NCBI GenBank assembly: GCA_944331915.1
Contig: CALVIR010000003.1
Coordinates: 3,294 to 67,293 of the forward strand
Reading direction: 5' to 3'
Source: an uncultured Bacilli bacterium
GTDB lineage: Bacteria > Bacillota_I > Bacilli_A > RF39 > UBA660
DNA: 64,000 nucleotides
Part shown: piece after piece, positions 7,691 through 51,789 of the stretch
Layout: every line of letters starts with the position of its first letter
Position numbering within the stretch: position 1 is the stretch's first letter
The notes under the pieces: generated by a model
What the model saw: only the letters and a program-made list of their open reading frames with translations
What the model was told of the DNA's origin: nothing
Database searches by the model: none
Program-made: the position numbers and the translations under genes

Positions 7691-7723
7691 TAGTAACATA
7701 ATTAATGAATTATTACAATAGAT

Positions 7724-9650: not shown

Positions 9651-9683
9651 CTAACTAAAAGTTAACATACAAATAGCAAAATG

Positions 9684-29780: not shown

Positions 29781-29879
29781 CTATCTTTAATTTAATACAA
29801 GTTTAACATAAATTATAATTAACAACAAGATATTTTTATCTTCAAATTAAAGAGAAAAAAATATTTTAACTCAATTTAT

Positions 29880-31971: not shown

Positions 31972-33102
31972 CTATTCACTTTTACTTAATGTAACTTTGG
32001 TAGTGTGTTCTTTGCCTGCTCTTAAATAAGTAAGTTCAATCGTATCTCCGGCTTGATATTTATATAATTCATATCTTAAGTAAGCAGAATCAGATACCTC
32101 TACGCCATTGATGGCAGTTACAATATCACCTGTTTTTAGATCTGAGGAAGCAGCGCCTGTTCCTTCTTCAATACCAGCGATAACAACACCACTATCAACA
32201 TCGTTTGGAATATCAAAGTTGTAACGATATGAATATTTAGCATCAGAGACATTTAACATTTGGACTCCTAATAGAGGCCATTCAATTGCTTCACCTTTTT
32301 CAAGGGTTTCAATCTTACTATTTACATATTCAATTGGAATAGCAAAGCCCATACCTTCAACTTCTGTTTGCACTAATTTTAAAGAGATAACCCCAATAAC
32401 CTCGCCATTAAGATTCATCAAAGGTCCACCACTATTACCTGGATTAATAGCAGCATCTGTTTGTAAAACTTTCATAACCCAATCACTACTTGAAGAGTTA
32501 TTATCAGTACTAACACTAACAAGACGATCTTTACCTGCTAAGTGACCCGTTGAAACACTACCACGGTAATCATAACCTAGAGGGTTACCTATAGTAAAGA
32601 CTAAATCACCTAGTTTAGAGTTTTCACTATTACCAAGGGTTAAAGCGACTAAATCATCAGTCTTTTTCATTTTAACAATGGCAATATCAACATAGGAGTC
32701 GCCACCAAGAACCTCACCTTCAATTTCTTCATCTTTTGAGGTTATTAAAGTAATTTTATCGGCTCCTTCAACGACGTGCTGATTAGTTAAAACATAGGCA
32801 TCATCACCTTCTATTTTATAAACAAAACCAGTACCAGTTGATGCGACCTCATCATTTTGATAGTTTCTAATCATTAAAACACCATCATAAACTTTTTCTA
32901 CCGCTTCACTTATACCTGATTCATCAACAACTACTTTAGTACAATCTGTCGCACTACAAGTTAGACCAGAGGAAGCTGATGAGGAGGTTGTAGTGGTTCT
33001 ATTAAATAAATCTTTACCATCAATAACTATAAAGGTTAATACACCTCCTATAACAAAAGATACAATTATTAGTATTGCCTCTTTAATTCTTTCACTTTTC
33101 AT
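31972..33102 (-). CDS. htrA: HtrA/DegP-family serine protease (S1C) with PDZ domain
   Basis: TM anchor. The catalytic serine sits in GNSGGPLMNLNGEVIGVI. The C-terminal PDZ-like region carries GDIVTAINGVEV. Confidence 0.8.
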   Translation of the reverse strand: MKSERIKEAILIIVSFVIGGVLTFIVIDGKDLFNRTTTTSSSASSGLTCSATDCTKVVVDESGISEAVEKVYDGVLMIRNYQNDEVASTGTGFVYKIEGDDAYVLTNQHVVEGADKITLITSKDEEIEGEVLGGDSYVDIAIVKMKKTDDLVALTLGNSENSKLGDLVFTIGNPLGYDYRGSVSTGHLAGKDRLVSVSTDNNSSSSDWVMKVLQTDAAINPGNSGGPLMNLNGEVIGVISLKLVQTEVEGMGFAIPIEYVNSKIETLEKGEAIEWPLLGVQMLNVSDAKYSYRYNFDIPNDVDSGVVIAGIEEGTGAASSDLKTGDIVTAINGVEVSDSAYLRYELYKYQAGDTIELTYLRAGKEHTTKVTLSKSE

Positions 33103-34048
33103 CTACATTACTCCTTTCTATATTTGCAAGTTGCATATAATTTGCGGGAAAACCCATTCTATCTAAAATATTTTCTATCTTAATACTATGTAAATTATAT
33201 GAAAGATTTTCAATTTTTTTATCAAGTTCTAAACTCATATTTTTAAATTCTTCATACGATAGCATTCGTTTCATAATTATAACTAAAGCGAATAAATCAT
33301 TAGTTCCTTTTACATATTCTCCTTCATCACTTTTCTCTATATTTAATATTTGGTGGTAAAAAGTTCCTTCTATATGTTTTTGAGTTCTATTTTCATAAAG
33401 AATATCTTCATGAGCACAGAGATTACGGTAGTTAGATAAGATAGGTAAATAAGTACTGAAATCTTCTAAAGAAATATTATACATTTTACAAATACTAATT
33501 TGATCATCATATTTCATAATAGAAAATAATTCACCAACAATACCAAAGGATAAGACTTTAACTAAAATCCAAAGAGGAATATAACCATAGTTAGACATAT
33601 AATGGGCAGTAGCACTATGTTGACTACCATTTATTCTAATTTGGCGTTTCATCTTTTTGATTAAGTCATTAACTTGTTTCTGTTTATTTTTATCTTTAGT
33701 AAAGTTCCTACTCTTTAAATAAGTCTTTTCTTTATAACCATATTTCTTAGATAGTTGATAAGAAAAGATTGATTTTAAGTTATTTTCTATTATCAAAAGA
33801 TTTTTAAAGAAAATATTTCTTATATCCCGATCGAAGAGAAATAAACTATAAAGTTCTTCAAAGGTAACACCTGGTAAGAAATGTTTATCAGTCATACTTC
33901 TCATTAAAGGATATCTATAACCGGATAAGAAAAAGTAATTTTCTCTTAAGAGAATCTTTTTAGCATATTCTTCATCAGTTATAGTCATACCTTTATATTT
34001 CAGGATTTCTATTTGTTCTTCAAGATTTTTAAACTTTTTATCTATCAT
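33092..34048 (-). CDS. Abi_2 (AbiD/AbiF-type) abortive-infection family protein
   Basis: The N-terminus ...NLEEQIEILKYKGMTITDEEYAKKILLRENYFFLSGYRYPL follows the Abi_2 pattern. It overlaps the htrA start by 11 nt. Confidence 0.6.
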   Translation of the reverse strand: MIDKKFKNLEEQIEILKYKGMTITDEEYAKKILLRENYFFLSGYRYPLMRSMTDKHFLPGVTFEELYSLFLFDRDIRNIFFKNLLIIENNLKSIFSYQLSKKYGYKEKTYLKSRNFTKDKNKQKQVNDLIKKMKRQIRINGSQHSATAHYMSNYGYIPLWILVKVLSFGIVGELFSIMKYDDQISICKMYNISLEDFSTYLPILSNYRNLCAHEDILYENRTQKHIEGTFYHQILNIEKSDEGEYVKGTNDLFALVIIMKRMLSYEEFKNMSLELDKKIENLSYNLHSIKIENILDRMGFPANYMQLANIERSNVDEK

Positions 34049-38989: not shown

Positions 38990-39220
38990 TAATATGAAAA
39001 AAATCAAAGTTTTTAGGCTTTGAATCTTTCGTATTATTGCATTTCTTCCCAAGTTTTACCATCTAGTATTTTAGCGATTTCTTCGGTTGATGGTAATTTA
39101 TCTGTTTTTAAAATATCAGTTAAGTTAAATAATTTAGTTCGAAATAATGGGTATTTGCTCGCTTTGATAAAATTCGTTTTGACAAATTTATCAACAATAA
39201 AGTAATTGTGTTCAATATTT
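38990..39220 (-). pseudogene. duplicated 3'-terminal fragment (~59 codons) of gene 50752..51789; left copy of a 231-bp direct repeat
   Basis: About 95 % nucleotide identity to 50706..50936. It translates to ...VDKFVKTNFIKASKYPLFRTKLFNLTDILKTDKLPSTEEIAKILDGKTWEEMQ*. Confidence 0.8.
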
Positions 39221-39591: not shown

Positions 39592-40233
39592 TTAAAGTTT
39601 CTTTTTTTTAATTTTATCTTTTCTGATACCATTACTATAATTTTGTAACACCTCTATTGTAGTTGGGGGAACTAATTGAGCAATTGTATTCCAATCATTA
39701 TTTTCAAGGGCATTTCTTACAGTTTTTGCACTAATAGATTGACCATTTCTATCAGTAAATCTAGGTATCTCAATAACCTCAATACCATATAAAGGTAAAT
39801 TATTTTTTAATTCTCTATTATATGATGCAGTAATAATATCAGTTTTTTCTTCTCCTACAAATCTTTTTTTAACATTTAATGTAGGAGCTATATAATCAGT
39901 AAATATTTCCCTATCTAGTGATACATCTATAGTAACATCAGTTTTTTCTTCTCTATTAAAGTACTCTGGAAAGATCATTGAGGAACCGAAAATTTTACCA
40001 CTAGGAATAACTGTAACATTAGAAAAATCTTTACAACCATTCTGCACCATTTTATATCTGTCATCAAACTTAAATACAGATTTATCATCTTGAACTACTA
40101 TAACAAATAATTCTTCTACTTGTTCAGAAGCATATTTTATTAAATTATAATGTCCATAAGTAAATGGATTACAATTCATTAGTATTGCACCATTAGGACC
40201 ATCTGGTATATCTAGACTCTTTAACATAGACAA
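39592..40233 (-). CDS. CitC-C-terminal-like nucleotidyltransferase (HxGH superfamily: adenylyl/cytidylyltransferase)
   Basis: NCNPFTYGHYNLIKYASEQV...LFVIVV resembles the [citrate lyase] ligase adenylyltransferase domain (NPFTxGH). Confidence 0.5.
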   Translation of the reverse strand: MSMLKSLDIPDGPNGAILMNCNPFTYGHYNLIKYASEQVEELFVIVVQDDKSVFKFDDRYKMVQNGCKDFSNVTVIPSGKIFGSSMIFPEYFNREEKTDVTIDVSLDREIFTDYIAPTLNVKKRFVGEEKTDIITASYNRELKNNLPLYGIEVIEIPRFTDRNGQSISAKTVRNALENNDWNTIAQLVPPTTIEVLQNYSNGIRKDKIKKKKL

Positions 40234-41663
40234 ATATTCATCAATAAATTTATTATTTGAAAATACATTTCTTTTTTGACTTTTTTTACAGGAATTATAC
40301 TTTCTTTATTTTGAGGATTAATTGTTAATAAGTTTTTCTTAATTTTATCATATATATAATCAGCAATATAACCATTTGCAATATGATTACAATGAGCAGG
40401 TTTATCAAGAAAATAATTGTGTAAAGTATTATTATTAAAAACAGGTAATAAGGTTTCTACATCAGTAAATCCTAATCTAGCAAGTTTTTCTTTTTCATCT
40501 GTTGATATAATAAAAATCATTTTATCGCCATGTTTTATATTTACATTGTCAGCAATTCTAACTTGTTCAGGTAATTCCATAGCTCTTAAACCATAATTAT
40601 TAACTGAATAATCCATATTATTAACATTAACTTTTCTTTGCAAGTAACTTGCTATAGTATGTTTATCATCTACTAAAGCACCATATACCATACAAGGACC
40701 GAATATATTAATATCAAATGCATAATCAAAACTCTTATCTGTAGTATATCTAATTCCATTAATACTTTTACAAAAATCATTATCAGAATCTGCTAATCTG
40801 CAAATGCCATTTTTTAGTATAGTTCCAGGAGATAAATTTTCCTTGTCTATATAATCTTCAGTAAATAAATCCCCCATAACTGTTTCTACTAAATTTCTTA
40901 TTTCAGGATCATTCATATAGTTACTAAGGTAATATATATAATTAACTTTAGCCTTCATTCTCAATTGTTCTACAAATGTTAATTCTGTAAATTGTTCATT
41001 ATTAGGAAATTCAAACACATAAGTTTCAAAAGATTGACCTTTTAAAAAACTATTAACAAAATAGTATATTTCTGCCTCATTACATAATTCATTTATATTT
41101 AATATACTCGAAGATAAGTCATTATCAAATCTACAATACCTATTTATTTCTTGTTTTAAATCCATCGAAAATAAATCTGTATCAATTAATAATGATTTTT
41201 CCTCTAAAATAGAACTTAAATAATTATCATAATCAATAGGAATAATAGAGGTAGAGAATTCATTTCCATAGACATTTATATAATTAAATAATTCTTGTGA
41301 TAACCCACCTCTAACAAAAACCTTTTTCGGTTTTCTACTTCTTAAATAATTAATAATTTTATCATTATTAGCATATAAACATTTCCATCTAGTTGAATCA
41401 ATTGATGTATTCTTCCATTCACTATTGTCTTTATTATTTTTTTCTTTTGTATATATAGCCAATTCATCAATTGTAATTTTTAAACTACTATCATTACGAA
41501 TACTATTTATAAAAGAATCATAAGTTATAAATTGCTCATCATTCAAGGCTACAATTGATTCTTGATTTTGCAAAAATATATTAATTAATTTATGTTTTAA
41601 ATTAATATCGGATTCACTTATATGAATTACACTATTTTCTTTATTCATTACTATCCCCCTCAA
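40221..41663 (-). CDS. hypothetical protein (480 aa)
   Basis: I recognise no family. It is soluble and sits inside the island operon. Confidence 0.5.
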   Translation of the reverse strand: MRGIVMNKENSVIHISESDINLKHKLINIFLQNQESIVALNDEQFITYDSFINSIRNDSSLKITIDELAIYTKEKNNKDNSEWKNTSIDSTRWKCLYANNDKIINYLRSRKPKKVFVRGGLSQELFNYINVYGNEFSTSIIPIDYDNYLSSILEEKSLLIDTDLFSMDLKQEINRYCRFDNDLSSSILNINELCNEAEIYYFVNSFLKGQSFETYVFEFPNNEQFTELTFVEQLRMKAKVNYIYYLSNYMNDPEIRNLVETVMGDLFTEDYIDKENLSPGTILKNGICRLADSDNDFCKSINGIRYTTDKSFDYAFDINIFGPCMVYGALVDDKHTIASYLQRKVNVNNMDYSVNNYGLRAMELPEQVRIADNVNIKHGDKMIFIISTDEKEKLARLGFTDVETLLPVFNNNTLHNYFLDKPAHCNHIANGYIADYIYDKIKKNLLTINPQNKESIIPVKKVKKEMYFQIINLLMNICLC

Positions 41664-41672
41664 CTTTAAATA

Positions 41673-42425
41673 TTATTCATTAATATTTTTCAACAAAAAA
41701 TTAACAATTTCATTATCATAATTATATAGTTCGTGTTTCCCATCTTCAATAGTTGTCAATTTTAAATTATTCTTCTTACAAAAATCACTAATATCTTTAT
41801 AAAGAACTGTCTTATCTGCTGTTCCATGAATTATTGAAATATTTTGAAACTCATAATTTTTAACAGCATTATCGCCATTTTTAAATTGAAGATAAGCATC
41901 TTTAGATATTTTAATGTTATTATACAAAGGCATAAATTCATTAGTATTAAAATAATCAAGTGATATTCCTGATTTATGTTCCATAATCTCACAAAAATTA
42001 ATAGCCGGACACATTAACATTGTTTTTTCTATATTTTTATTATTCTGCATTAACTTATTTAAAATCACAAAACCACCAAAACTACAGCCAAACAAATATA
42101 TAGGTACATTATACTTTGTTTTTACATATGTAATAATTTCTTCTAGATAGGTTATACACAAACTTAAATTAAAAAGTGAAAAATCTGTTTTATCTTCTCC
42201 ATGACCAGGAAAGTCAAAAGAAATAATACCAATTTTATTTTTTAATAAATCATCATAAAATCTTGTTGCCCATGTTTTGTTGCTACCTAACCCATGACAA
42301 TAAATTATTATTTTATTCATATTATCATGAGGTATGGCACTAAAAGTATTAATTTTATCATTAATTAAATAATTAAATTTAACTCTTAAATCATTTTTTG
42401 CCTTTTCAATAATCTTTTCGTTCAT
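41673..42425 (-). CDS. alpha/beta-fold hydrolase
   Basis: HGLGSNK..., the nucleophile elbow GCSFGG, and a C-terminal Asp/His. Confidence 0.65.
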   Translation of the reverse strand: MNEKIIEKAKNDLRVKFNYLINDKINTFSAIPHDNMNKIIIYCHGLGSNKTWATRFYDDLLKNKIGIISFDFPGHGEDKTDFSLFNLSLCITYLEEIITYVKTKYNVPIYLFGCSFGGFVILNKLMQNNKNIEKTMLMCPAINFCEIMEHKSGISLDYFNTNEFMPLYNNIKISKDAYLQFKNGDNAVKNYEFQNISIIHGTADKTVLYKDISDFCKKNNLKLTTIEDGKHELYNYDNEIVNFLLKNINE

Positions 42426-42455
42426 AAGTAATCCTCTTTTCCATCACTAATTATA

Positions 42456-43268
42456 TCATAACTTTTTAATATATTTTTCAAATGTTTCTTTATTAGGATA
42501 ATCTGTATTATCTAATTCATAATGCAACTTCTCATAGTCATAATCAACTATATTTTCTGTAAGAATAATTTCATTATTAACATTTTCTAAAACATAATAC
42601 ACTGCTTGTTTATCAATCGCTACACCTGTTCCATTAAGTGAATAAAAATCTATATTATCTTTTGTATGTTTTCTAAAGAAATGATAATGTCCATAAATTA
42701 TACCATTGTATTCATCTACCTTTTTTCCTCCAAATAATGGATCATTATTTGCTGATATTAAAAGTGGTGTTTGATTAGTAGAAAACCTCATATCTTGTGG
42801 TGTATTAGTTTCAAAAAAAGAGCTAACATCTTCCCCATTATATTTCCATACACCAGAATAATCATATCGTACATCAATAGGAAAATGACACAATGCGATT
42901 TTTTGATTACCAAGTTCAATGTCTATTGAATGAGGCATTCTCTGTAATGCACAAATTTGTTTACTTGTCAATGCTTCTCTTGTCCATACAGCATTATAAT
43001 AACGTGCAATATTGTGTTTTTTTAAATAATCAAAACTATCAGCACCAAATATTACATATTCTTCAGCATTTCCTAGAATATTTATAATATTATTTTCTAA
43101 AATTAACTCTAAACATTCACTAGGATGATTACCAAGTCCAATAACATCCCCTAAAGAATAAATTGTCTTTATATTATTATTTTTTATGTCCATAAGAACT
43201 GCTTTTAATGCTTCTAAATTTGCATGAACATCTGATATCAATGCTATCTTTTCTTGCATAGCACACAC
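42456..43268 (-). CDS. calcineurin-like metallophosphoesterase
   Basis: IALISDVHANLEAL ... LGDVIGLG ... GNAEEYV are MPP signature blocks. Confidence 0.65.
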   Translation of the reverse strand: MCAMQEKIALISDVHANLEALKAVLMDIKNNNIKTIYSLGDVIGLGNHPSECLELILENNIINILGNAEEYVIFGADSFDYLKKHNIARYYNAVWTREALTSKQICALQRMPHSIDIELGNQKIALCHFPIDVRYDYSGVWKYNGEDVSSFFETNTPQDMRFSTNQTPLLISANNDPLFGGKKVDEYNGIIYGHYHFFRKHTKDNIDFYSLNGTGVAIDKQAVYYVLENVNNEIILTENIVDYDYEKLHYELDNTDYPNKETFEKYIKKL

Positions 43269-43330
43269 CTCTTTTCTGTTGATATTTTGTTTATATTATG
43301 TTAATATATACCATCAAGGAAGTGGTATAT

Positions 43331-43822
43331 ATGATAATTGTCGAAGGATTAGATGGTTGTGGAAAAACAACTTTAATAACTAATTTAGCCAAAGAAGGAA
43401 AACAATTAGTAATTCCAAACAATGACTTTGAAAATTTTTATAATAAATATGTAGATACTTTTGAGAGATCTTCAATTAATTCAATAATGGATCGTTCTTT
43501 TATAAGTGTAATGGTTTATGGAAAAGTATTAAGTAATAAAACAAGAATTTCTGAACAAGATTATCTAAAGTTACTTGAATTATACACTAAAAACAAACCT
43601 AGTATTATATATTTATATGCACCACAAGAATTACTATTGGAAAGACGAAAAGATGATAGAAGTGATAGATTAGTATTATTGCATTTATATAAATCACTAT
43701 TAGAAGAATTTGATTATAGACTAGAGCAAGCAAGTAATTTTATGCCAGTTTACAAAATTAATACAGCTAATTACAACGAACAACAAACTTTTGAACAAAC
43801 CAAGAAATTAATTAAACTTTAA
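43331..43822 (+). CDS. P-loop nucleoside-monophosphate kinase, thymidylate-kinase-like
   Basis: IIVEGLDGCGKTTLI (compare the Tmk FEGIDGSGKTT) and DRSFISVMVYG (compare DRYxxSxxAYQ). I chose the 43331 start because of the AGGAAG RBS; the 43298 start in the ORF track is also possible. Confidence 0.6.
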   Translation: MIIVEGLDGCGKTTLITNLAKEGKQLVIPNNDFENFYNKYVDTFERSSINSIMDRSFISVMVYGKVLSNKTRISEQDYLKLLELYTKNKPSIIYLYAPQELLLERRKDDRSDRLVLLHLYKSLLEEFDYRLEQASNFMPVYKINTANYNEQQTFEQTKKLIKL

Positions 43823-45081
43823 TTTCTTTTTTTAATTAGACTCTTTGCATAATTTGGAATAGTAATTGAGCTTATAATACTAGAATCATATGTCGTATTT
43901 TGATGCCTATCAATTTCAAATGAAGGCTTTAAGGCAATTTTTAATAATTGTTCAATTGATAATTCACTTTGCATTAATATTGCTTTATCATAATTATCAG
44001 AAAAATCTCTATTTATTTCAGAGCGAGGAAAAAAAGCAATTTTTAAATTATCTTTATCCTGAAACAGAGACTCTAAATAATTCTCTATATATTTCTTAAT
44101 GTAATCACTATCAGTTGCAAGTACATCATATTGCGTTAATAGTGCATTTATATTCTTGATACAAGCATTCAAATCTCTCTGAATAAATGCTGTTCTATCA
44201 AATACATTTTCATTTAACATATAATTTCCATTGCTAACAAGCCTTGACATAAAAACAGGTGATAATACAGAATAATAATAAGCAGCACCAAAATTATCAG
44301 TAGTGAAAAAGTTAGGATTTTGTTGGTAACTCCAATTTTGTTGAAAAACACCATTCATATTATAATTCCTAAAAATATTATCTATTTTTAACATTTCGCT
44401 TGTATCGCAACAATTTAAATCACCAGAAAGTCCATATTTTAAAATTTGATTTTCAAATCGATTATTAAAACCATGAAAACAATATCCTTTATCTATAAAA
44501 TTCTGCTTTAATGTTATTAAGCATTTATCTTTTTTACCATCATTTTTTGAAACTATATTTTTAAATAAAACATTGTCACATCTATACAATAAATCTTCAA
44601 AACTTAATGATACTTTGCATTTTTTTATAATTTCATCTAAATACTTATCTATAAATTTATAATCATGAATTTTATCTTGATTCATAATCAGAAAACAATA
44701 TATTTTTTGTAAAAGTAAAGCTTGTAAAAATAATTGTGTATCTGCCAAAGCAGTAACATTAACACCTATTTTTCTTAAATCAAAACTAAAATTTCTACTC
44801 TGAATAATTTGTAAAATTTCTTGTATTTTCTCACTATTTAATAATTTTTCAAATTGTTTAACAAAGGCTACATCATTTTCTTGGTAATTATGATATATTT
44901 TCATATCATCTTGTATATCTATTTTTTTCAAATGTTTATGTTTACTAATTTCACTAACATATTTTTTTAACTCACTATCACTTATTTGATATTTATGACA
45001 TATACTATCAAATTTTTCTTGGGAAAGTTCGATATCACATTCATCTGTAACCATTTTAGAAATTAAATCATATAAATTCAT
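43819..45081 (-). CDS. hypothetical protein (420 aa)
   Basis: I recognise no family. Confidence 0.5.
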   Translation of the reverse strand: MNLYDLISKMVTDECDIELSQEKFDSICHKYQISDSELKKYVSEISKHKHLKKIDIQDDMKIYHNYQENDVAFVKQFEKLLNSEKIQEILQIIQSRNFSFDLRKIGVNVTALADTQLFLQALLLQKIYCFLIMNQDKIHDYKFIDKYLDEIIKKCKVSLSFEDLLYRCDNVLFKNIVSKNDGKKDKCLITLKQNFIDKGYCFHGFNNRFENQILKYGLSGDLNCCDTSEMLKIDNIFRNYNMNGVFQQNWSYQQNPNFFTTDNFGAAYYYSVLSPVFMSRLVSNGNYMLNENVFDRTAFIQRDLNACIKNINALLTQYDVLATDSDYIKKYIENYLESLFQDKDNLKIAFFPRSEINRDFSDNYDKAILMQSELSIEQLLKIALKPSFEIDRHQNTTYDSSIISSITIPNYAKSLIKKRN

Positions 45082-45542
45082 AGCAAATCTCCATATTCAG
45101 TAAGATATAACTCTAATGCTTTTCTTTGATAAGGTAATTCTAAGTAGTCTAATGCATTATTTATATCTATTAAAACTAATTCTGATCCTATTTCTAAAGG
45201 CTCAACTATATCTTCTTCTATATCTACTAAAAAAATATGTGCTAGTGATTCCATATGCTTTTTATTTCTAGTAAACCAAAAACAGTCTATAGAACAAAAA
45301 TCTTTAATTGTTTTTACTTTACAACCACTTTCTTCTAAAAATTCTCTATATAAACATTCTTGAAATGTCTCACCAGTTTCTTTACCTCCACCTATTAATG
45401 ACACTTCTTCATTTTTTTTAGTCAAATATATTTTTTTATCTTTAACATAAATGCCAAAACAAGTTTCACGGAAATCATATTTAATATTTTTATCTTTAAT
45501 TCCTATTTGTACTTTTTTCATTAGTCCTCCCATACTTTCCAA
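45078..45542 (-). CDS. NUDIX hydrolase
   Basis: Nudix box GGGKETGETFQECLYREFLEESG. Confidence 0.75.
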   Translation of the reverse strand: MESMGGLMKKVQIGIKDKNIKYDFRETCFGIYVKDKKIYLTKKNEEVSLIGGGKETGETFQECLYREFLEESGCKVKTIKDFCSIDCFWFTRNKKHMESLAHIFLVDIEEDIVEPLEIGSELVLIDINNALDYLELPYQRKALELYLTEYGDLL

Positions 45543-46300
45543 GGTGCTTTATCAGCCTTAATTAATTTATTCAAATATTCTCTTTCACTTTGAAAATCCA
45601 TACATTGCCAAAAGCCTAAATGCTTATATGCAGAAAGTTGTTTATTTTCCACTAATTTTTCCAAAATTTCTTTTTCAAAGGATGCAGAATCAGGAGTCAA
45701 ATATTTTAATATTTCTTTATTAACAACCATAAATCCACCATTAATCCATTCATCCTCTTTTAAAAATTTTTCTCTAAAATATTTGACATTTGTATCCTCT
45801 AATTCAACAACACCAAATCGTTCTTCTCTTTTAACAACTGTAATAGTTGCAAGAGACTTTTGTTTCTTATGAAATTCATATAAATCTTTAATATCTATAT
45901 CTGATACTGCATCAGCATAAGTCAGAAAGAATGAATCGTCATCATCATCTAAATATTTTTCAATTCGTTTTAATCTGCCACCTGTTAAAGTATTCAAGCC
46001 TGTATCTACTAAAGTAATATTCCAGTCCTCACTATTATTATTCAATATCTTTAGTTCTTGATTCTTAAAATTAATACTAATATCTTTCTTCTGATTCATT
46101 AAATCTAAAAAATATTTTTTAAAATCCTCTTGTTTATATCCTAAACATAATATAAAATCTTTAACGCCATAGTGATAATACATTTTCATAATATGCCAAA
46201 CAATAGGCATATCCCCAACAGTTACAAGTGGTTTTGGAGTAGTATCGCTCTCTAATTTTATCCTGCTACCCTTACCGCCTGCAAAAATAACACATTTCAT
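45521..46300 (-). CDS. rfbF: glucose-1-phosphate cytidylyltransferase (RfbF/DdhA-like)
   Basis: MKCVIFAGGKGSRI...TPKPLV..G.MPIVWHIMKMYYHYGVKDFILCLGYK...WNITLVDTGLNTLTGGRLKR is near-collinear with RfbF. Confidence 0.8.
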   Translation of the reverse strand: MKCVIFAGGKGSRIKLESDTTPKPLVTVGDMPIVWHIMKMYYHYGVKDFILCLGYKQEDFKKYFLDLMNQKKDISINFKNQELKILNNNSEDWNITLVDTGLNTLTGGRLKRIEKYLDDDDDSFFLTYADAVSDIDIKDLYEFHKKQKSLATITVVKREERFGVVELEDTNVKYFREKFLKEDEWINGGFMVVNKEILKYLTPDSASFEKEILEKLVENKQLSAYKHLGFWQCMDFQSEREYLNKLIKADKAPWKVWED

Positions 46301-46317
46301 ATAAAATCCCCCTTTAC

Positions 46318-47997
46318 TTAAATTTTTAAAATTGTTGCATTATTTATAGATGTATTCCAATAATAATCATTTTCTTTCTTTGCAACTACAATTTTAATGC
46401 CTAGTTTTTCAGTCAAAAATGAAATTTCATTAAAATTCAATTCTAAATCCTTAATAACTACTGTTCTATCTATAAAATCAATTTTATCTATATCAATGTT
46501 TTTGCCAATCTTTTCTACTAAAAAAACAATATACTTTTTCTCTGGAAACTTAAAATTATCGTATTTTTCTTTACAACGATTTCGCTGAACTAATGGGCAA
46601 TTATTACAATTAATACATATATCAGTATTATAGAAAAATTTTCTATCAGGCTGTCCTAATGCATAGCCTAATGCACAACTTGTAGTTTGAAAAATAGGAT
46701 AATCTTTGTTATTTACTAAATCATTCCATAGGTAATCGTATGCTTCTTTATTCCATACATTATCAGATTGTAATGCCTCTTTACGGTTATTCTTTAAAGC
46801 ATCCCATTCTATATTATCTATAATATCATCTGTAGTTTTTAAACCTATTGCAACAGAAGCAATACAATATTTTTTTACAAAATTGTATATTTTTTTTACA
46901 TCTTCCTTTTTAGAATTTTGTGGAATAAAAGGTCTCCAATAATGAATTATCTTCTTTCCTTTTTCTGATAATCTAATAAAATTATTTTCAATTATCTTTT
47001 TATTTACTCCCAATTCGATATCTTTATCTAATCCTGAATAACTTAAGAAAAATAAAAAATTATGACCTCGTTTCTCATATTTATCAATAAAGTCAATAAA
47101 ATCTTCTGGAATTTTACACTTTGTTATAAAAACTATAGGATTTTTTATTTCTCTTTTCATTAATATTTCTATCAATTGTTTTAAATATTCTACATTATCA
47201 ACAGTAGAAAATGCATCAGTTTGAGAAAATAAACATAAAGGCATATCTTCAATATAAAATTTACTTGATAACAATAAATCAACTGCTTTTTCAGGACTTA
47301 CTAACGTAATAGGCTGAATTCGATTCAATTCTCTTTCCTTTAAAAAACAATATTTACACTGTTTTGGACAACCTTGGATCGGATTTAATACTAGCCAAGT
47401 CGCATGAACATCTACGACTGGGTAAAACTTTGGAGTCTTTCTTTTCTCATAATTATCTAAAAACTTTGAAGCATCTAAAATCATTTTTTTAAATTCATCA
47501 GACAATTTTAAATCTAAATCATAAGCAATAGAAAAAACAATTTCAAATAGTCTAGCTATATTAAAATATAAAAAATCTTCTTCTTTTGCATACCCATATC
47601 TTATTTTATAATGTCTATAATCTTTAATTTCTAATACTTTTTCAGATACTTGACCATAAACTGTATTAAAACTTAATATTGCTTCTGCCACATTTTCAAA
47701 TTTTATATAACTGTAATTATAATCATAATTTTGAAAATCTAAATCTAATTTCCAACACAAACTAATTAATTGTAAAACTACATCTGATAATTCATCACCC
47801 AAATCATTAATATTTCTTCCATTCTCACCGTAATTTTTATGTTTTGAAATTAAATAACTAAAATGACCTAATTGAACATTAAGTTCTGCTAATACAGTAA
47901 TGGCATCCCATTCCTTATTTTCAGTAATTTTAAATCTTTCTTTTAATTTAATAGCATTATCATAATTATCTTTCAAAAATACTTTAATATCTTCCAT
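46318..47997 (-). CDS. fusion protein: N-terminal MazG-like NTP pyrophosphohydrolase domain plus radical SAM domain with C-terminal auxiliary Cys cluster
   Basis: N-domain: LGDELSDVVLQLISLCWKLDLD (MazG EExGDxLxQ motif). From aa ~200: NPIQGCPKQCKYCF (Cx3Cx2C, SplB/COG1533-like). C-terminus: CINCNNCP...C ferredoxin-like motif. Confidence 0.6.
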   Translation of the reverse strand: MEDIKVFLKDNYDNAIKLKERFKITENKEWDAITVLAELNVQLGHFSYLISKHKNYGENGRNINDLGDELSDVVLQLISLCWKLDLDFQNYDYNYSYIKFENVAEAILSFNTVYGQVSEKVLEIKDYRHYKIRYGYAKEEDFLYFNIARLFEIVFSIAYDLDLKLSDEFKKMILDASKFLDNYEKRKTPKFYPVVDVHATWLVLNPIQGCPKQCKYCFLKERELNRIQPITLVSPEKAVDLLLSSKFYIEDMPLCLFSQTDAFSTVDNVEYLKQLIEILMKREIKNPIVFITKCKIPEDFIDFIDKYEKRGHNFLFFLSYSGLDKDIELGVNKKIIENNFIRLSEKGKKIIHYWRPFIPQNSKKEDVKKIYNFVKKYCIASVAIGLKTTDDIIDNIEWDALKNNRKEALQSDNVWNKEAYDYLWNDLVNNKDYPIFQTTSCALGYALGQPDRKFFYNTDICINCNNCPLVQRNRCKEKYDNFKFPEKKYIVFLVEKIGKNIDIDKIDFIDRTVVIKDLELNFNEISFLTEKLGIKIVVAKKENDYYWNTSINNATILKI

Positions 47998-47998
47998 T

Positions 47999-48859
47999 TT
48001 ATCTCCATCCTTTTTCTCGTAATGTTAACTGTTTTTCATAAGATTCTTTTTCAGGACTATTTAGTGCATTTACTTTATGTCTAATTACACTTAAATAATA
48101 ATTAATTAAATTATTCTTTATAGTGCCATCTTGTACACCTAAAATTATATCTTTATAAAATTTATCACAATGTGATAAAACATCATATGCTTTTTTTATT
48201 TGATTATCATAGTTATCATTTCTCATAATACTATTTTGACTTTTATAATAATGATATCCAATATAAGGAATACTAGAAACACTTTTTGCTTTACTTAAAA
48301 TTAAAGACGTAAGTGCAAAATCTTCTTGTAACATTCCAACAGGAAATTTAAAATTATTTTTTTCCCAAAAGCTAAAATCATAAGCATATAGCCAAGACGG
48401 GCTATATATTTCAAAGTTTTTTGCAAACTTATTTAATGCTTCTATCCCATTAATATTATAAAACTCATCTGTAATATATTTTTCATAAACTTTGTTGTCA
48501 TTATCAACCATAATACCTTGGTATCGAATCATATCATTTTCATTATCAATAATAGATAACTTTTCAAGTAAACTTTTTTCGATCCAATCATCAACATCAA
48601 CAAAAATTATTGCATCGCCATTAACTTTTGATAATCCATAATTTCTTACCTTACTTATATCTTCAAATGAAACTTCATAATATTTAATGTTTGGAAAATT
48701 AAAGTCAGAATGAATAATATCTGCAGTATGATCTGTGCTACTATCATTTATAAATATAATTTCATAATCTGAATATGTCTGTTGTCTAATTGAATTTAAA
48801 CATCTAGAAATATATTCTTGACCATTATGTGATGGAACAATAATACTAAATTTTTTCAT
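47999..48859 (-). CDS. family 2 glycosyltransferase
   Basis: FSIIVPSHNGQEYISRCLNSIRQQTYSDYEIIFINDSSTD ... FVDVDD. Confidence 0.8.
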   Translation of the reverse strand: MKKFSIIVPSHNGQEYISRCLNSIRQQTYSDYEIIFINDSSTDHTADIIHSDFNFPNIKYYEVSFEDISKVRNYGLSKVNGDAIIFVDVDDWIEKSLLEKLSIIDNENDMIRYQGIMVDNDNKVYEKYITDEFYNINGIEALNKFAKNFEIYSPSWLYAYDFSFWEKNNFKFPVGMLQEDFALTSLILSKAKSVSSIPYIGYHYYKSQNSIMRNDNYDNQIKKAYDVLSHCDKFYKDIILGVQDGTIKNNLINYYLSVIRHKVNALNSPEKESYEKQLTLREKGWR

Positions 48860-49394
48860 TTTTCCTCCTAATAAAGATAAAAAGACAAACGGATGAATGC
48901 TTGTCTTTAGTTAAATTTATTATATTGCAGAATTAACCATCCGGTTTATCTGCCGATTATACTATCATACAATTAACTAAATGTCAAAGGTCATAGCAAA
49001 ACTGTGGGTGTAAATTTTTTCTATTTCATTCCAGCGATTACTTTCATACATATATCTTAATGTAATCACATAATTAGTACCTTTAACACTCCATCTCATA
49101 CCTGATTATTTTAATCTAAGTAGTACTACAGTTTTATTAGAACTTTCTGCTGCACCACTACTTACAAACCAACCATTGTGTTCATAAGTAGAATAATCTA
49201 TTTCATTTTTGTTATTCTCTAAATAAACTGGCAAATTACAAACAGTCTTAGGCATTGTTATGTTACTATATTTATTCAATTATTTAACTATTAAGTTATA
49301 TTCTCTAGAATAACAATATCCAATTATTTGTTCTTTAACTTTCTCTACCTTTTTAATAACTAATGACCATACGGTGCATGGTCATTAGTCTAGG

Positions 49395-49970
49395 GTTTAA
49401 TTCCCCGTTGCTTGCAACGTAAGGCCGAGCGTAGTATTATAAATACGGAGTGAGGGCGATGTTATGGAAGAGAGTCAATATCTATATTTGTCGCACAACG
49501 TAAGTAATCTTGTTTACCACATTGTATGTCCAGCAAAATACCGTCGTGTAGTATTTGATGAAACAGTGGATGAACATCTTCGACAAATTTGTCTTGAGAT
49601 AGAGAAACGTTATGACTATATTGTTTTTCTAGAGATAGGTACGGATAAAGATCATATACATTTTCTAGTTCAAAGCACACCAAACTATGCACCTAGTAAA
49701 ATAGTTCAAATAATAAAGAGCATAACAGCAAGACAAATTTTTGTCGAATGTCCTCAAGTAAAGAAACAACTATGGGGAGGACAGTTTTGTTCAGACGGTT
49801 ATTTTGTGGCTACAGTAGGCAAAAATCAAAATGAATCGGTAATAAAAGAATATGTAAAAAATCAAGGTAAACAAGATGCGGAATACAAGCAGTTATATTT
49901 GAAATTTCAACAGCAAAAATAACATCGCTTTGGGAAGATACCCCGTAGCTTGCTGCGGGGAGTATTCATT
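49395..49970 (+). mobile_element. IS200-type insertion sequence (tnpA only) with terminal hairpins
   Basis: Left hairpin cgttgc-ttg-gcaacg (49407..49420); right hairpin ccccgtagc-ttg-gctgcgggg (49941..49960). Confidence 0.6.
49464..49922 (+). CDS. tnpA: IS200/IS605-family Y1 (HUH) transposase TnpA
   Basis: A 152-aa protein with VYHIVCPAKYRR...HIHFLVQSTPNYAPSKIVQIIKSITARQIF, the classic IS200 TnpA. Confidence 0.85.
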   Translation: MEESQYLYLSHNVSNLVYHIVCPAKYRRVVFDETVDEHLRQICLEIEKRYDYIVFLEIGTDKDHIHFLVQSTPNYAPSKIVQIIKSITARQIFVECPQVKKQLWGGQFCSDGYFVATVGKNQNESVIKEYVKNQGKQDAEYKQLYLKFQQQK

Positions 49971-50705: not shown

Positions 50706-50936
50706 ATAATATGAAAAAAAATCAAAGTTTTTAGGCTTTGAATCTTTCGTATTATAGCATTTCTTCCCAAGTCTTACCATCTAGTATTTTAGCGATTTCT
50801 TCGGTTGATGGTAATTTATCTGTTTTTAAAATATCAGTTAAGTTAAACAATTTTGTTCGAAATAATGGGTATTTGCTCGCTTTGATAAAATTCGTTTTGA
50901 CAAATTTATCGACAATAAAGTAATTGTGTTCAATAT
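50706..50936. repeat. right copy of the 231-bp direct repeat (the 3' end of intact gene 50752..51789)
   Basis: About 95 % identical to 38990..39220, in the same orientation. Confidence 0.8.
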
Positions 50937-51789
50937 TTCTTAAATCATAGCCGTAGTTACTAGATCTTTTGATTGCTTCTTCTATATTTTTAATCTCATT
51001 AGGTAGTGGATCTTCTCCTTCAACAGTAGAATAAACTAATTTATCATCTTTATAAACGGCTTTAATAATCTTTTTTATTTTACCGATAGCATTAATTCTT
51101 TTATCTTTATAAAGACCAATATAGCCATGATCAGTAAAGCCTCGTGATGATTGATCATAATACATATTTAAGTCTATATTATCTTCAAAGGTAGTACCTG
51201 AGGTGATAGCGCGAAGCCATTTATCTTTATCTGGTAATAAATCTTCATATAAACAGTAGTCTTTAAAGTCCTCTAAGATAGCAAAAATATCAGTATCTCG
51301 TTCATCAATAATATCTTCCATGGCTTTGATTAGATCGTTGAAAGTAATATTAATATGTTTTATAGCCATTTTATTTTTTTGGTTGTATTCATCTAGTTTT
51401 ACTTGAAAACGGTCATAAAAATCTTTTTTCATCGGTTTAGGATCTAGTGTTAATAATACTTTTATTTCTTCATTATTAAACTTAGTTAGATGGTTTAATA
51501 GTTGATCTAGATCAAATTCATTATATAATTTTGTTTCAACAACTACTTTAAAACTCTGCTGACTAATAACAGCATCAGGTACACTTTTGTTATTTGATGA
51601 TTGTAATTCAAAACTAAGTTCTGGGGTAGAATTTTCCTTTAAAATTAAATTATTAAGCATTAGAAAGAACTTATCAGGATTATAATTATATAACCGTGAT
51701 AACATTAACATCGTATTAGCGGTATCAACATTTTCTTTTGAATGATATCTTTGAAAATAGTGTATTTTCATTTTCTTACTCCTCTTCAC
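50752..51789 (-). CDS. hypothetical protein with putative PD-(D/E)xK nuclease motif
   Basis: A 345-aa protein. PDAVISQQSFKVVVETK gives a D-x12-E-x-K pattern. The C-terminal domain is unassigned. Confidence 0.45.
   Translation of the reverse strand: MKRSKKMKIHYFQRYHSKENVDTANTMLMLSRLYNYNPDKFFLMLNNLILKENSTPELSFELQSSNNKSVPDAVISQQSFKVVVETKLYNEFDLDQLLNHLTKFNNEEIKVLLTLDPKPMKKDFYDRFQVKLDEYNQKNKMAIKHINITFNDLIKAMEDIIDERDTDIFAILEDFKDYCLYEDLLPDKDKWLRAITSGTTFEDNIDLNMYYDQSSRGFTDHGYIGLYKDKRINAIGKIKKIIKAVYKDDKLVYSTVEGEDPLPNEIKNIEEAIKRSSNYGYDLRNIEHNYFIVDKFVKTNFIKASKYPLFRTKLFNLTDILKTDKLPSTEEIAKILDGKTWEEML

What the first reader, a model, noticed from the sequence alone, without database searches (positions are those of the whole stretch)
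39592..48859. Operon combining nucleotidyltransferases, a Tmk-like kinase, NUDIX, a metallophosphoesterase, an alpha/beta hydrolase, the MazG-rSAM fusion and a GT2: candidate novel nucleotide or nucleotide-sugar modification (possibly defence) system
Eleven genes are packed tightly with overlapping stops and starts on one strand; only the kinase is on the opposite strand. They are a CitC-like HxGH nucleotidyltransferase, two large unassignable proteins (480 and 420 aa), a GxSxG hydrolase, a calcineurin-like phosphoesterase, a thymidylate-kinase-like P-loop kinase, a NUDIX hydrolase, an RfbF-type glucose-1-phosphate cytidylyltransferase, the MazG-radical-SAM fusion and a GT2 glycosyltransferase. 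The usual partners of RfbF, namely CDP-glucose 4,6-dehydratase and epimerases, are absent. The set instead reads as phosphorylate, activate, radical-modify, glycosylate, then hydrolyse by-products. Such toolkits occur in DNA or nucleotide hypermodification and in nucleotide-based anti-phage systems, as well as in unusual wall-glycopolymer decoration. Its location in a repeat-flanked, IS-terminated island supports an accessory, horizontally acquired function.
Basis: inference. Interest (0 to 1): 0.8.

Follow-up and report, generated by a model that had tools for sequence, protein, structure and literature searches.

The report
Mobile radical-SAM pyrimidine-nucleotide modification operon
An 11.7-kb horizontally acquired island in an uncultured gut Bacilli genome carries a nine-gene operon built around an undescribed radical-SAM enzyme fused to a dUTPase-like domain; it probably makes a modified pyrimidine nucleotide or nucleotide-sugar, and distant relatives of the enzyme are fused to bacterial immune (TIR) domains.

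Summary
The gene set is real, with two corrections. There are ten ORFs, not eleven. The '480-aa unknown' and the 'CitC-like' ORF are one 685-aa gene, split here by a 1-nt deletion in an A-run.

The operon sits in a low-GC island bracketed by a 224-nt direct repeat and ending in an IS200 transposase. The whole nine-gene order, including the antisense kinase, recurs in other uncultured Bacilli MAGs at 35-90% identity.

The core is wider than this cluster. A rare radical-SAM family (about 200 cluster representatives at E<=1e-30 among 1.84 billion) occurs across phyla. It is nearly always found with a dimeric-dUTPase/MazG-like domain and a NUDIX hydrolase. It usually also has a sugar-1-phosphate nucleotidyltransferase and a P-loop kinase.

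Partner genes elsewhere point to uracil/cytosine nucleotides as substrate: dCTP and cytidine deaminases, MurA-like and MurD-like enzymes, and UDP-GlcNAc 2-epimerase. Distant members with the same invariant residues are fused to TIR, DUF4062, HD and metallophosphoesterase domains.

The family is found on ICEs, plasmids and recombinase islands, and never in the phage collections searched. No known defence model matches it and I found no paper describing it.

Best reading: a mobile pathway that makes a radical-modified pyrimidine nucleotide, nucleoside or NDP-sugar. A conflict (defence or antimetabolite) role is plausible but unproven.

The parts
38997..39220 (.). Direct repeat copy 1 (224 nt): a duplicated 3' end of the 345-aa ORF, forming the left boundary of the island
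   Evidence: 98% identical to 50715-50938; tblastn of the 345-aa ORF hits the equivalent spot in L001
39592..41663 (-). One gene of about 685 aa, split here by a 1-nt deletion near 40282. It has an unassigned N-terminal domain of about 470 aa with two Rossmann-like segments and conserved FGPCM.YGALVDD, NYGLRA and DKPAHCN motifs. The C-terminal domain is a CitC-type HxGH adenylyl/nucleotidyl-transferase (TYGH and ISAKTVR motifs).
   Evidence: Foldseek hits only the C-terminal domain: PPAT, PanC, NMNAT
41673..42425 (-). Alpha/beta hydrolase with a GCSFG nucleophile elbow
   Evidence: Hydrolase_4 1.6e-14, Abhydrolase_1 7.5e-12
42456..43268 (-). YfcE-like metallophosphoesterase (DVH, GD, GNAE and GHYH motifs)
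43298..43822 (+). Phage-type thymidylate-kinase-like P-loop kinase (GLDGCGKTT, MDRS, Arg-rich lid). It is encoded antisense inside the operon, and this orientation is conserved in all full-length homologous clusters.
   Evidence: PHROG 761, E 6.2e-21, residues 12-172
43819..45081 (-). 420-aa protein of unknown fold and function, specific to the Bacilli nine-gene form of the cluster
   Evidence: no significant match; conserved in 12+ loci; no profile relation to other partners
45078..45542 (-). NUDIX hydrolase with an intact NUDIX box (GGKETGETFQECLYREFLEESGC). The likely true start is the ATG at 45521.
45521..46300 (-). RfbF-type glucose-1-phosphate cytidylyltransferase
   Evidence: TIGR02623, 306.8 bits, cutoff 300.25
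46318..47997 (-). Fusion protein. Residues 1-185 form a dimeric-dUTPase/MazG-like all-alpha domain. Residues 195-480 form a radical-SAM partial TIM barrel (C210, C214, C217) with a second invariant four-Cys set (C441, C461, C467, C475). Residues 485-559 form a small alpha/beta C-terminal domain.
47999..48859 (-). Soluble GT2 glycosyltransferase (DxD: VDVDD); first gene of the operon
48959..48987 (-). Best sigma-70-like promoter match upstream of the operon (TTGACA-17-TAGTAT with TG). A terminator-like hairpin at 48908-48881 lies in the leader.
   Evidence: consensus match only
49464..49922 (+). IS200/IS605 Y1 transposase at the right end of the island
   Evidence: PF01797, 5.5e-36
50715..50938 (.). 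Direct repeat copy 2, overlapping the 3' end of the 345-aa ORF (50752-51789, minus strand)

Best explanation
This is a horizontally mobile biosynthetic operon whose central enzyme belongs to an undescribed radical-SAM family that acts on a pyrimidine nucleotide-linked substrate (dUTP/dUMP, UTP/CTP, or a UDP-/CDP-hexose).

Proposed mechanism, all steps inferred unless marked:
1. The RfbF-type enzyme makes CDP-glucose. This is an assignment by homology above the curated cutoff.
2. The dUTPase/MazG-like domain fused to the radical-SAM domain binds the pyrimidine nucleoside di- or triphosphate moiety, possibly hydrolysing it, and presents it to the catalytic domain.
3. The radical-SAM domain cleaves SAM at the CX3CX2C cluster. 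With a probable auxiliary cluster on four further invariant cysteines, it abstracts a hydrogen from the sugar or base to give a modified nucleotide.
4. NUDIX and the metallophosphoesterase trim the phosphates. The thymidylate-kinase-like enzyme phosphorylates a monophosphate intermediate or analogue.
5. GT2 transfers hexose from the NDP-sugar.
6. The 685-aa CitC-type ligase adenylates a carboxylate and acylates the product, and the alpha/beta hydrolase reverses or edits that ester.

The product would be a modified, glycosylated and possibly acylated pyrimidine nucleoside or nucleotide made inside the cell. The most likely use is as an antimetabolite in conflict with phages or competitors, as with viperin products or nucleoside antibiotics.

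Shown here: the gene set, the folds, the conserved motifs, the fusion and neighbourhood links, the mobility and the rarity. Not shown: substrate, product and phenotype.
For: Functional linkage of the core:
- The dUTPase/MazG-like domain occurs fused N-terminally to the radical-SAM domain, fused C-terminally, as a neighbouring gene, or fused to NUDIX.
- The nucleotidyltransferase is also found fused to the radical-SAM domain (P0216, P0226).
- The radical-SAM + MazG-like + NUDIX triad is present in 50 of 63 loci read, spanning Bacilli, Clostridia, Paenibacillus, Muribaculaceae, actinomycetes, alphaproteobacteria and Saccharibacteria.

Pointers to a pyrimidine nucleotide substrate:
- The N-domain has the dimeric dUTPase fold.
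- The window kinase is a phage-type thymidylate kinase.
- Partner genes elsewhere are GalU-like UTP-glucose-1-phosphate uridylyltransferase and UDP-GlcNAc 2-epimerase.
- Others are MurA/EPSP-synthase-like and MurD-like enzymes.
- On Streptomyces plasmid pFRL6 the partners are two dCTP deaminases, a cytidine deaminase, GalU, a glycosyltransferase and a HAD hydrolase.

An intracellular, small-molecule or nucleotide target:
- No cluster protein has a transmembrane segment.

Accessory and conflict flavour:
- Low-GC island with direct repeats and IS200.
- ICE cargo, a serine-recombinase island splitting ahpC, and plasmids.
- Family members sharing all invariant residues are fused to TIR, DUF4062+HD, metallophosphoesterase and TCAD9-kinase domains. 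Some lie next to PemK or RelE toxin genes.
Against: - No substrate or product is known for any member.
- The dUTPase-like domain keeps only three of the four canonical acidic metal ligands (E38, E69 and D72; Q42 replaces a Glu). It may bind rather than hydrolyse.
- The nucleotidyltransferase subfamily differs between lineages (RfbF-like here, GalU-like elsewhere), so the nucleotide identity is not fixed.
- No PADLOC hit and no classical defence genes adjacent in the loci read.
- GT2s, a hexapeptide acetyltransferase and UDP-GlcNAc 2-epimerase in some versions would suit glycan synthesis equally well.
- The ligase gene is frameshifted in this window, so this copy may be decaying, or the assembly may carry a homopolymer error.
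Confidence: 0.4

Rival explanations
1. Cell-surface glycan decoration. CDP-glucose (or a UDP-sugar elsewhere) is converted by the radical-SAM enzyme into an unusual deoxy, keto or branched hexose, replacing the missing 4,6-dehydratase. GT2 then transfers it to a wall polymer or lipid-linked glycan. NUDIX and MazG regulate the NDP-sugar pool, and the ligase and hydrolase add or remove an acyl group.
For: - RfbF equivalog plus GT2, with best matches to O-antigen, teichuronic-acid and GtrB-like transferases.
- Versions with three or four GT2s and a hexapeptide acetyltransferase (L008, L028).
- UDP-GlcNAc 2-epimerase is a frequent partner.
- NUDIX enzymes are known in glycan clusters (GDP-mannose mannosyl hydrolase; my own knowledge).
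Against: - No transmembrane protein, flippase, polymerase, priming phosphoglycosyltransferase or exporter in the operon.
- The minimal forms have no glycosyltransferase at all (L014-L017, L047-L051).
- A thymidylate-kinase-like kinase, dCTP and cytidine deaminases and a dUTPase-fold domain have no obvious role in glycan synthesis.
- TIR-fused relatives.
Confidence: 0.2
2. An anti-phage immune system in the strict sense. On infection, the radical-SAM enzyme converts a cellular pyrimidine nucleotide or NDP-sugar into a chain terminator or signal, or destroys it. MazG-like, NUDIX and phosphoesterase activities deplete nucleotides, and the remaining genes tune or detoxify the product.
For: - TIR-, DUF4062/HD-, LRR- and TCAD9-fused members of the same radical-SAM family keep identical invariant residues.
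- TIR-rSAM next to PemK. A Nostoc plasmid copy is paired with a small P-loop protein among toxin-antitoxin genes and a recombinase.
- Compact two- or three-gene modules next to prophage-like genes.
- Patchy cross-phylum distribution on mobile elements.
- The radical-SAM plus nucleotide-kinase pairing recalls prokaryotic viperins (my own knowledge).
Against: - No PADLOC match for the radical-SAM protein or for the system.
- No phage phenotype is known.
- The nine-gene form, with a glycosyltransferase, ligase and esterase, looks biosynthetic rather than like a sensor-effector pair.
- The TIR-fused branch lacks the dUTPase-like domain and is distant (about 230-270 bits against 350-530 for the core).
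Confidence: 0.2
3. Pre-replicative DNA base hypermodification of the host's or the element's own DNA. dUTP is converted to dUMP by the dUTPase-like domain. A radical C5/C6 modification follows, then the thymidylate-kinase-like enzyme rephosphorylates. The base is incorporated into DNA and then glucosylated by GT2 from CDP-glucose. This resembles phage hydroxymethyl-pyrimidine pathways, with a radical-SAM enzyme in place of the ThyA-like hydroxymethylase.
For: - dUTPase fold.
- Phage-type thymidylate kinase.
- NDP-glucose synthesis plus a glycosyltransferase.
- pFRL6 operon with dCTP deaminases, a methyltransferase, GalU and a glycosyltransferase next to conjugation genes.
- Spore photoproduct lyase as a structural neighbour.
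Against: - No member in 2.9 million IMG/VR contigs or 50,697 phage records, where such pathways normally live.
- No DNA polymerase, DNA glycosylase/transglycosylase-like or restriction partner in the conserved core.
- GT2 is not a known DNA glucosyltransferase fold (my own knowledge).
- Genome-wide thymidine replacement in a cellular organism is unprecedented.
Confidence: 0.08
4. Nucleotide-pool sanitation or repair. The radical-SAM enzyme reverses a damaged pyrimidine nucleotide, as spore photoproduct lyase does in DNA, and MazG-like and NUDIX enzymes remove non-canonical nucleotides.
For: - MazG, NUDIX and dUTPase are classic house-cleaning folds.
- Spore photoproduct lyase is the second-best structural match.
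- JGI names one member 'DNA repair photolyase'.
Against: - The distribution is rare, patchy and mobile rather than housekeeping.
- The constant association with sugar nucleotidyltransferases, and the glycosyltransferases, ligase and esterase, have no place in repair.
- TIR fusions.
Confidence: 0.04

Closest known systems
Prokaryotic viperins (pVips) with adjacent nucleotide kinases
   Different: - No sequence-level membership; the PADLOC viperin models do not hit.
- This family has a different C-terminal region, with four extra invariant cysteines and a small alpha/beta domain.
- It is obligatorily coupled to a dUTPase-like domain and NUDIX, which viperins lack.
Radical-SAM plus nucleotide phosphohydrolase pairs in nucleoside-analogue biosynthesis (oxetanocin OxsB/OxsA). 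Also radical-SAM steps in uridine- or cytosine-derived antibiotics (tunicamycin TunB with NUDIX TunN and phosphatase TunG; nikkomycin/polyoxin NikO-NikJ/PolA-PolH; blasticidin BlsE). Recalled from my own knowledge.
   Same: - The logic of a radical-SAM enzyme working with a nucleotide pyrophosphatase or phosphatase, a glycosyltransferase and an acylating enzyme.
- Streptomyces plasmid versions place the radical-SAM gene directly after a MurA/EPSP-synthase-family gene, as in the NikO-NikJ pair.
   Different: - No demonstrated homology beyond the shared radical-SAM fold.
- OxsB is B12-dependent, and OxsA is an HD-domain protein, not MazG or NUDIX.
- No exporter or resistance gene in the window operon.
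- The host is a gut Bacilli MAG rather than an antibiotic-producing actinomycete.
Spore photoproduct lyase / COG1533 'DNA repair photolyase' radical-SAM group (with the PA0069 family and 'radical SAM mobile pair protein B')
   Same: - The only NCBIfam hits are to this group (PA0069 E 5.5e-7 and rSAM_mob_pairB E 1e-4 for the Paenibacillus member).
   Different: Scores are far below the family cutoffs (16-29 bits against 360-410). The extra four-Cys motif, the C-terminal domain and the dUTPase-like partner are not features of spore photoproduct lyase.
Phage thymidine/cytosine hypermodification and glucosylation pathways (T4, SPO1-type)
   Same: The toolkit of dNTP pyrophosphatase, dNMP kinase, NDP-glucose and glycosyltransferase. 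The kinase matches a phage thymidylate-kinase family.
   Different: - No ThyA-like hydroxymethylase.
- The central enzyme is radical-SAM.
- Absent from the phage collections searched.
- The glycosyltransferase is GT2.
CDP-glucose / 3,6-dideoxyhexose (rfb) pathway
   Same: RfbF-type glucose-1-phosphate cytidylyltransferase above the equivalog cutoff.
   Different: No CDP-glucose 4,6-dehydratase, RfbH, reductase or epimerase in the island.

Membership tests
Radical SAM superfamily | CX3CX2C motif binding a [4Fe-4S] cluster in a partial TIM barrel | tested here: met
   [not shown]
Viperin / pVip | Sequence membership in the viperin family (a defence-database model hit) | tested here: not met
   [not shown]
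Viperin / pVip | Converts CTP, UTP or GTP to 3'-deoxy-3',4'-didehydro-NTP | not testable with these tools
   Needs an enzyme assay.
Spore photoproduct lyase / PA0069 (COG1533) | Score above the curated family cutoff | tested here: not met
   NF033668 PA0069 scores 16.2 bits (window) and 28.9 bits (Paenibacillus member) against a cutoff of 360.
All-alpha NTP pyrophosphatase superfamily (MazG / dimeric dUTPase / HisE) | Four-helix-bundle fold | tested here: met
   [not shown]
All-alpha NTP pyrophosphatase superfamily (MazG / dimeric dUTPase / HisE) | Full EXXE...EXXD set of acidic metal ligands | tested here: inconclusive
   Invariant E38, Q42, G44, H45, D68, E69 and D72. The ExxD pair is present. 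The first pair is E-x3-Q, so one canonical Glu is missing. Catalysis cannot be judged.
Glucose-1-phosphate cytidylyltransferase (RfbF, TIGR02623) | Equivalog score above the cutoff, plus the GGxGxR motif | tested here: met
   306.8 bits against 300.25, full length 1-257. The motif is FAGGKGSR.
Citrate lyase ligase (CitC, TIGR00124) | Full-length architecture (N-terminal GNAT-like domain plus C-terminal adenylating domain), scoring above the cutoff | tested here: not met
   170.7 bits against a cutoff of 262.1. Only profile positions 139-330 match. The N-terminal 470 aa are unrelated and unassigned.
Known anti-phage defence systems (PADLOC-DB v2.0) | Significant match of the signature proteins to a system model | tested here: not met
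   Only weak generic hits: the kinase to PDC-M51B, VakA and PtuA P-loops, and NUDIX to PDC-S07. For the fused relatives only the TIR or DUF4062 parts match.
Phage pyrimidine hypermodification pathways | ThyA-like dNMP hydroxymethylase, and occurrence in phage genomes | tested here: not met
   No ThyA-like gene in the island. No family member in IMG/VR or INPHARED phage records. Only the kinase is phage-like.
Capsule / teichoic-acid / O-antigen glycan locus | Membrane machinery: priming transferase, flippase or ABC exporter, polymerase | tested here: not met
   None among the ten ORFs. The maximum 19-residue hydropathy is 1.44, below the usual 1.6 threshold, in every protein.

The most novel reading that the evidence does not exclude
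The radical-SAM family defines a new class of nucleotide-based immune or conflict enzymes. It would radically modify a pyrimidine (deoxy)nucleotide or nucleoside-diphosphate-sugar (ADP-ribose in the TIR-fused branch, UDP-/CDP-hexose or dUMP in the dUTPase/NUDIX branch) to make an antiviral analogue or signal. The window operon would then be an elaborated, ICE- and island-borne version that further glycosylates and acylates the product.
Probability: 0.2. Interest if true: 0.9.

Novelty: new variant of a known kind. Interest (0 to 1): 0.72.

Why it matters
Radical-SAM enzymes that act on free nucleotides are few (viperin, MoaA, QueE, OxsB, PolH/NikJ, TunB). Each one opened a field in antiviral nucleotides, cofactors or nucleoside antibiotics.

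This family is well defined. It has invariant residues, a probable auxiliary cluster and a high-confidence model, and its obligate partners already narrow the substrate to uracil/cytosine nucleotides. It is also rare, mobile and spread from Saccharibacteria to Streptomyces. Its distant members are fused to TIR and other immune-type domains.

Defining the product could reveal either a new antiviral or antibiotic nucleoside chemistry, or a new route to unusual NDP-sugars. The minimal two-gene forms (radical SAM plus MazG-like-NUDIX) make the question directly testable in vitro.

Tried and rejected
- **Flagellin or standard glycan island:** rejected. The flanks are a peptidase, an amidase, a ZIP transporter and similar genes, and the cluster has no membrane machinery.
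- **Defence-database match:** none.
- **Phage origin:** no relatives in IMG/VR or in phage GenBank records.
- **Riboswitch or other RNA in the 600-nt leader or the island:** no Rfam match at E<=0.1.
- **N-terminal 470 aa of the ligase and the 420-aa protein:** unresolved.
  - Pfam, NCBIfam, PADLOC, PHROGs and PDB sequence searches were negative.
  - Foldseek on the 687-aa model was dominated by the C-terminal nucleotidyltransferase domain.
  - hhalign against the other partner families found nothing.
- **Sequence-profile search of the radical-SAM domain against the PDB:** nothing significant.
- **Is the 'X' domain between TIR and radical SAM in distant fusions present in the window?** No.
- **Empty-site search:** a search of JGI metagenomes for the flanks joined across one repeat copy found no match.
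- **Literature:** four full-text searches gave no paper describing this family or cluster. The one radical-SAM mention in the NTP-dependent conflict-systems paper concerns a peptide-modifying enzyme.
- **Is the window kinase homologous to the small P-loop partners on the Nostoc and Streptomyces plasmids?** Only P-loop/DR-motif similarity, E about 0.1.

Full report
**Observation**

The region 39592-48859 holds ten ORFs: nine on the minus strand and one on the plus strand.

- GT2 (47999-48859).
- A 559-aa protein with a CX3CX2C motif and weak Radical_SAM hits (46318-47997).
- A glucose-1-phosphate cytidylyltransferase that passes the TIGR02623 equivalog cutoff at 306.8 against 300.25 bits (45521-46300).
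- A NUDIX hydrolase with an intact box (45078-45542).
- A 420-aa protein matching nothing (43819-45081).
- A P-loop kinase on the plus strand (43298-43822).
- A YfcE-like metallophosphoesterase (42456-43268).
- An alpha/beta hydrolase (41673-42425).
- A 480-aa unknown ORF (40221-41663) and a CitC C-terminal-like nucleotidyltransferase ORF (39592-40233).

Genes are separated by 0-30 nt or overlap, and most have good ribosome-binding sites. The kinase matches a phage thymidylate-kinase family over its full length (PHROG 761, E 6e-21), far better than any Pfam or NCBIfam model.

Two corrections are needed:
- The text says eleven genes but lists ten.
- The last two ORFs are one gene. A 99.3%-identical metagenome contig (L001) has one more base near window 40282, where the window reads GTAAAAAAAGTC, and encodes a single 685-aa protein. 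Of 30 homologues found among 5.8 billion proteins, the 27 of 596 aa or more are fused; the other three are fragments.

**The island**

- A 224-nt direct repeat, 98% identical, lies at 38997-39220 and 50715-50938.
- Copy 2 overlaps the 3' end of a 345-aa ORF, and copy 1 is a duplicated fragment of that end.
- Between the repeats lie the operon, a 600-nt leader and an IS200 Y1 transposase.
- Island GC is 25.2% against 29.4% on either side.
- The rest of the window is ordinary chromosome: IleRS, a Mur ligase, peptidases and an amidase.
- The nearest relatives are uncultured Bacilli MAGs from animal guts.

**The fusion protein**

An AlphaFold model built on 29 homologues is confident (pLDDT 92).

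Invariant residues are:
- N-domain: E38, Q42, G44, H45, D68, E69 and D72.
- Catalytic part: C210, C214, C217, D261, N268, K293, S319, E328, H352, R355 and P356.
- A second set of four cysteines: C441, C461, C467 and C475. I read these as a probable auxiliary Fe-S site.

**Comparative genomics**

The radical-SAM family is rare. It has 121 word-indexed homologues. An exhaustive HMM scan of 1.84 billion cluster representatives finds 707 at E<=1e-3 and 203 at E<=1e-30.

It is nonetheless phylogenetically wide. Members occur in Bacilli, Clostridia, Paenibacillus, Muribaculaceae, Pseudonocardiaceae, Streptomyces, Actinosynnema, Ensifer, Micavibrio, other alphaproteobacteria, and Saccharibacteria and other CPR lineages.

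I called ORFs in 63 loci and scored them with family HMMs. The results were:
- The full nine-gene order, including the antisense kinase, recurs in Bacilli MAGs at 35-90% identity (L018-L025, L062, L063).
- Across all lineages the constant set is radical SAM + dUTPase/MazG-like domain + NUDIX (50 of 63 loci).
- The dUTPase-like domain is found N-terminal to the radical-SAM domain, C-terminal to it, as a separate gene, or fused to NUDIX.
- Frequent extras are:
  - a sugar-1-phosphate nucleotidyltransferase, which is GalU-like in most lineages, RfbF-like here, and sometimes fused to the radical-SAM domain (P0216, P0226);
  - an HprK-related P-loop kinase;
  - UDP-GlcNAc 2-epimerase;
  - a RimK-type ligase and GT2s.
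- Minimal forms have two genes (L014).

**Substrate clues**

Partner genes elsewhere converge on uracil/cytosine nucleotides:
- On Streptomyces plasmid pFRL6 a strong member (385 bits) sits in an operon with two dCTP deaminases, a cytidine deaminase, a methyltransferase, GalU, a glycosyltransferase and a HAD hydrolase. A MazG gene and conjugation genes lie beside it.
- Several other Streptomyces linear plasmids carry GT4 - hypothetical - class II aldolase - MurA-like enolpyruvyl transferase - radical SAM (also L034).
- Another Streptomyces locus puts the gene after a MurD-like ligase.

Together with the dUTPase fold and the thymidylate-kinase-like gene, this makes a pyrimidine nucleotide, or a UDP-/CDP-linked sugar, the most economical guess for the substrate.

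**Conflict clues**

The family rides on mobile DNA:
- this direct-repeat/IS200 island;
- an ICE, next to type IV secretion genes (L062);
- a serine-recombinase island that splits ahpC (L010);
- a prophage-like region (L014);
- 24 plasmids.

It is absent from IMG/VR and from phage GenBank records.

More distant members, at 230-270 bits, keep every invariant residue. They are fused to several domain types:
- TIR (P0249, P0264, P0265);
- a TIR-like Nuc_deoxyrib_tr domain (P0247);
- DUF4062 + HD (P0322);
- a metallophosphoesterase (P0298);
- TCAD9 + APH kinase (P0261);
- LRR (P0328);
- transmembrane segments plus an unassigned 'X' domain.

One TIR fusion lies next to a PemK toxin gene. A Nostoc plasmid copy is paired with a small P-loop protein among toxin-antitoxin genes.

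PADLOC recognises only the TIR and DUF4062 parts of these fusions and nothing specific in the window operon. Four literature searches found no description of the family.

**Interpretation**

The data support a mobile accessory pathway centred on a new radical-SAM family that acts on a pyrimidine nucleotide-linked substrate. The dUTPase-like domain and NUDIX would act as obligate nucleotide-handling partners, and the nucleotidyltransferase and kinase would supply or recycle activated intermediates.

In the window form, GT2, the CitC-type ligase (with its unassigned N-domain), the esterase, the phosphoesterase and the 420-aa protein would elaborate the product.

All cluster proteins lack transmembrane segments, so the chemistry is cytoplasmic.

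I rank the readings as follows:

| Reading | Confidence |
|---|---|
| Nucleoside/nucleotide analogue (antimetabolite) | 0.4 |
| Surface glycan | 0.2 |
| Strict defence system | 0.2 |
| DNA hypermodification | 0.08 |
| Pool sanitation | 0.04 |

These readings overlap. A defence role would be one use of the analogue.

None of the substrate, product or phenotype steps is shown. The ordered scheme is inference from domain content, fusions and neighbourhoods.

**Unexplained**

- The kinase is conserved in antisense orientation. It lies convergent with the 420-aa gene (4-nt overlap) and divergent from the phosphoesterase, with about 30-70 nt between the starts.
- The 420-aa protein and the ligase N-domain have no assigned function.
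- The nucleotidyltransferase subfamily switches between lineages.

**Verdict**

The finding is real, non-trivial and apparently undescribed. Every individual fold is known, and 'radical-SAM nucleotide or nucleotide-sugar tailoring cluster' is a known kind of system, so I class it as a new variant of a known kind. There is a meaningful chance (about 0.2) that it represents a new class of nucleotide-based conflict system.

Noticed in passing
window 40275-40290: A 1-nt deletion in an A-run (GTAAAAAAAGTC, against GTAAAAAGAAATC in the 99.3%-identical contig L001) splits the 685-aa ligase gene into 480-aa and 213-aa ORFs. It could be a real pseudogenising frameshift or a homopolymer assembly error.
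   Followed up: yes
window 38997-39220 and 50715-50938: A 224-nt direct repeat (98% identical) brackets the operon plus IS200. Copy 2 is the 3' end of a 345-aa ORF with no family match. There is no integrase inside the island. An empty-site search in JGI metagenomes found nothing.
   Followed up: partly
window 43260-43822: The thymidylate-kinase-like gene lies antisense inside the operon. It is convergent with, and overlaps by 4 nt, the 420-aa gene, and is divergent from the phosphoesterase gene. This orientation is conserved in all full-length homologous clusters and suggests transcriptional interference or separate regulation.
   Followed up: partly
window 31972-34048: An Abi_2 (abortive-infection-like) gene overlaps a trypsin/PDZ HtrA-like protease gene on the minus strand, 5.5 kb from the island. 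This may be a two-gene Abi module.
   Followed up: no
window 5863-11459, 16684-18402, 22402-24177, 27707-31706: A family of seven paralogous proteins of 530-620 aa, all on the minus strand. Three are 70-75% identical to one another, the others share modules at 25-65%, and two carry DUF6273. They look like diversifying surface or secreted proteins.
   Followed up: partly
P0249, P0264, P0265 (L064, L065); P0267, P0274-P0277, P0283, P0296: Distant members of the same radical-SAM family are fused to an N-terminal TIR domain or to transmembrane helices. A conserved, unassigned 'X' domain of about 170 aa follows (motifs R.F/L.TTG..Y, LLLDP.S, hxhRhh...P). The X domain is a separate upstream gene in the Oscillibacter locus L058. 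Only the TIR part matches known defence models.
   Followed up: partly
L067 (Streptomyces sp. F12 plasmid pFRL6, record 69153-76690): An operon of two dCTP deaminases, a cytidine deaminase, a SAM methyltransferase, GalU, the radical-SAM enzyme, a glycosyltransferase and a HAD hydrolase. It lies next to a MazG gene and the conjugation genes, and looks like a pyrimidine nucleotide or nucleoside modification pathway on a conjugative linear plasmid.
   Followed up: partly
L066, L068, L069 (Streptomyces linear plasmids); L034: A recurrent module of GT4 - hypothetical - class II aldolase - MurA/EPSP-synthase-like - radical SAM. It recalls the enolpyruvyl-transferase plus radical-SAM pair of nikkomycin/polyoxin biosynthesis, sometimes followed by NUDIX and ABC-transporter ATPase genes, or by a 3'-5' exonuclease and a small P-loop protein.
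   Followed up: no
L010 6365-15163: A serine-recombinase island carrying the split MazG-like + radical SAM + (broken) nucleotidyltransferase + NUDIX + RimK + HprK-like genes. It interrupts an AhpC peroxiredoxin gene, whose fragments lie on both sides.
   Followed up: no
window 48881-48908 (minus strand): A terminator-like hairpin followed by a T-run lies between the best promoter match (48987-48959) and the GT2 start codon. It may be a leader attenuator. No Rfam family matches.
   Followed up: partly
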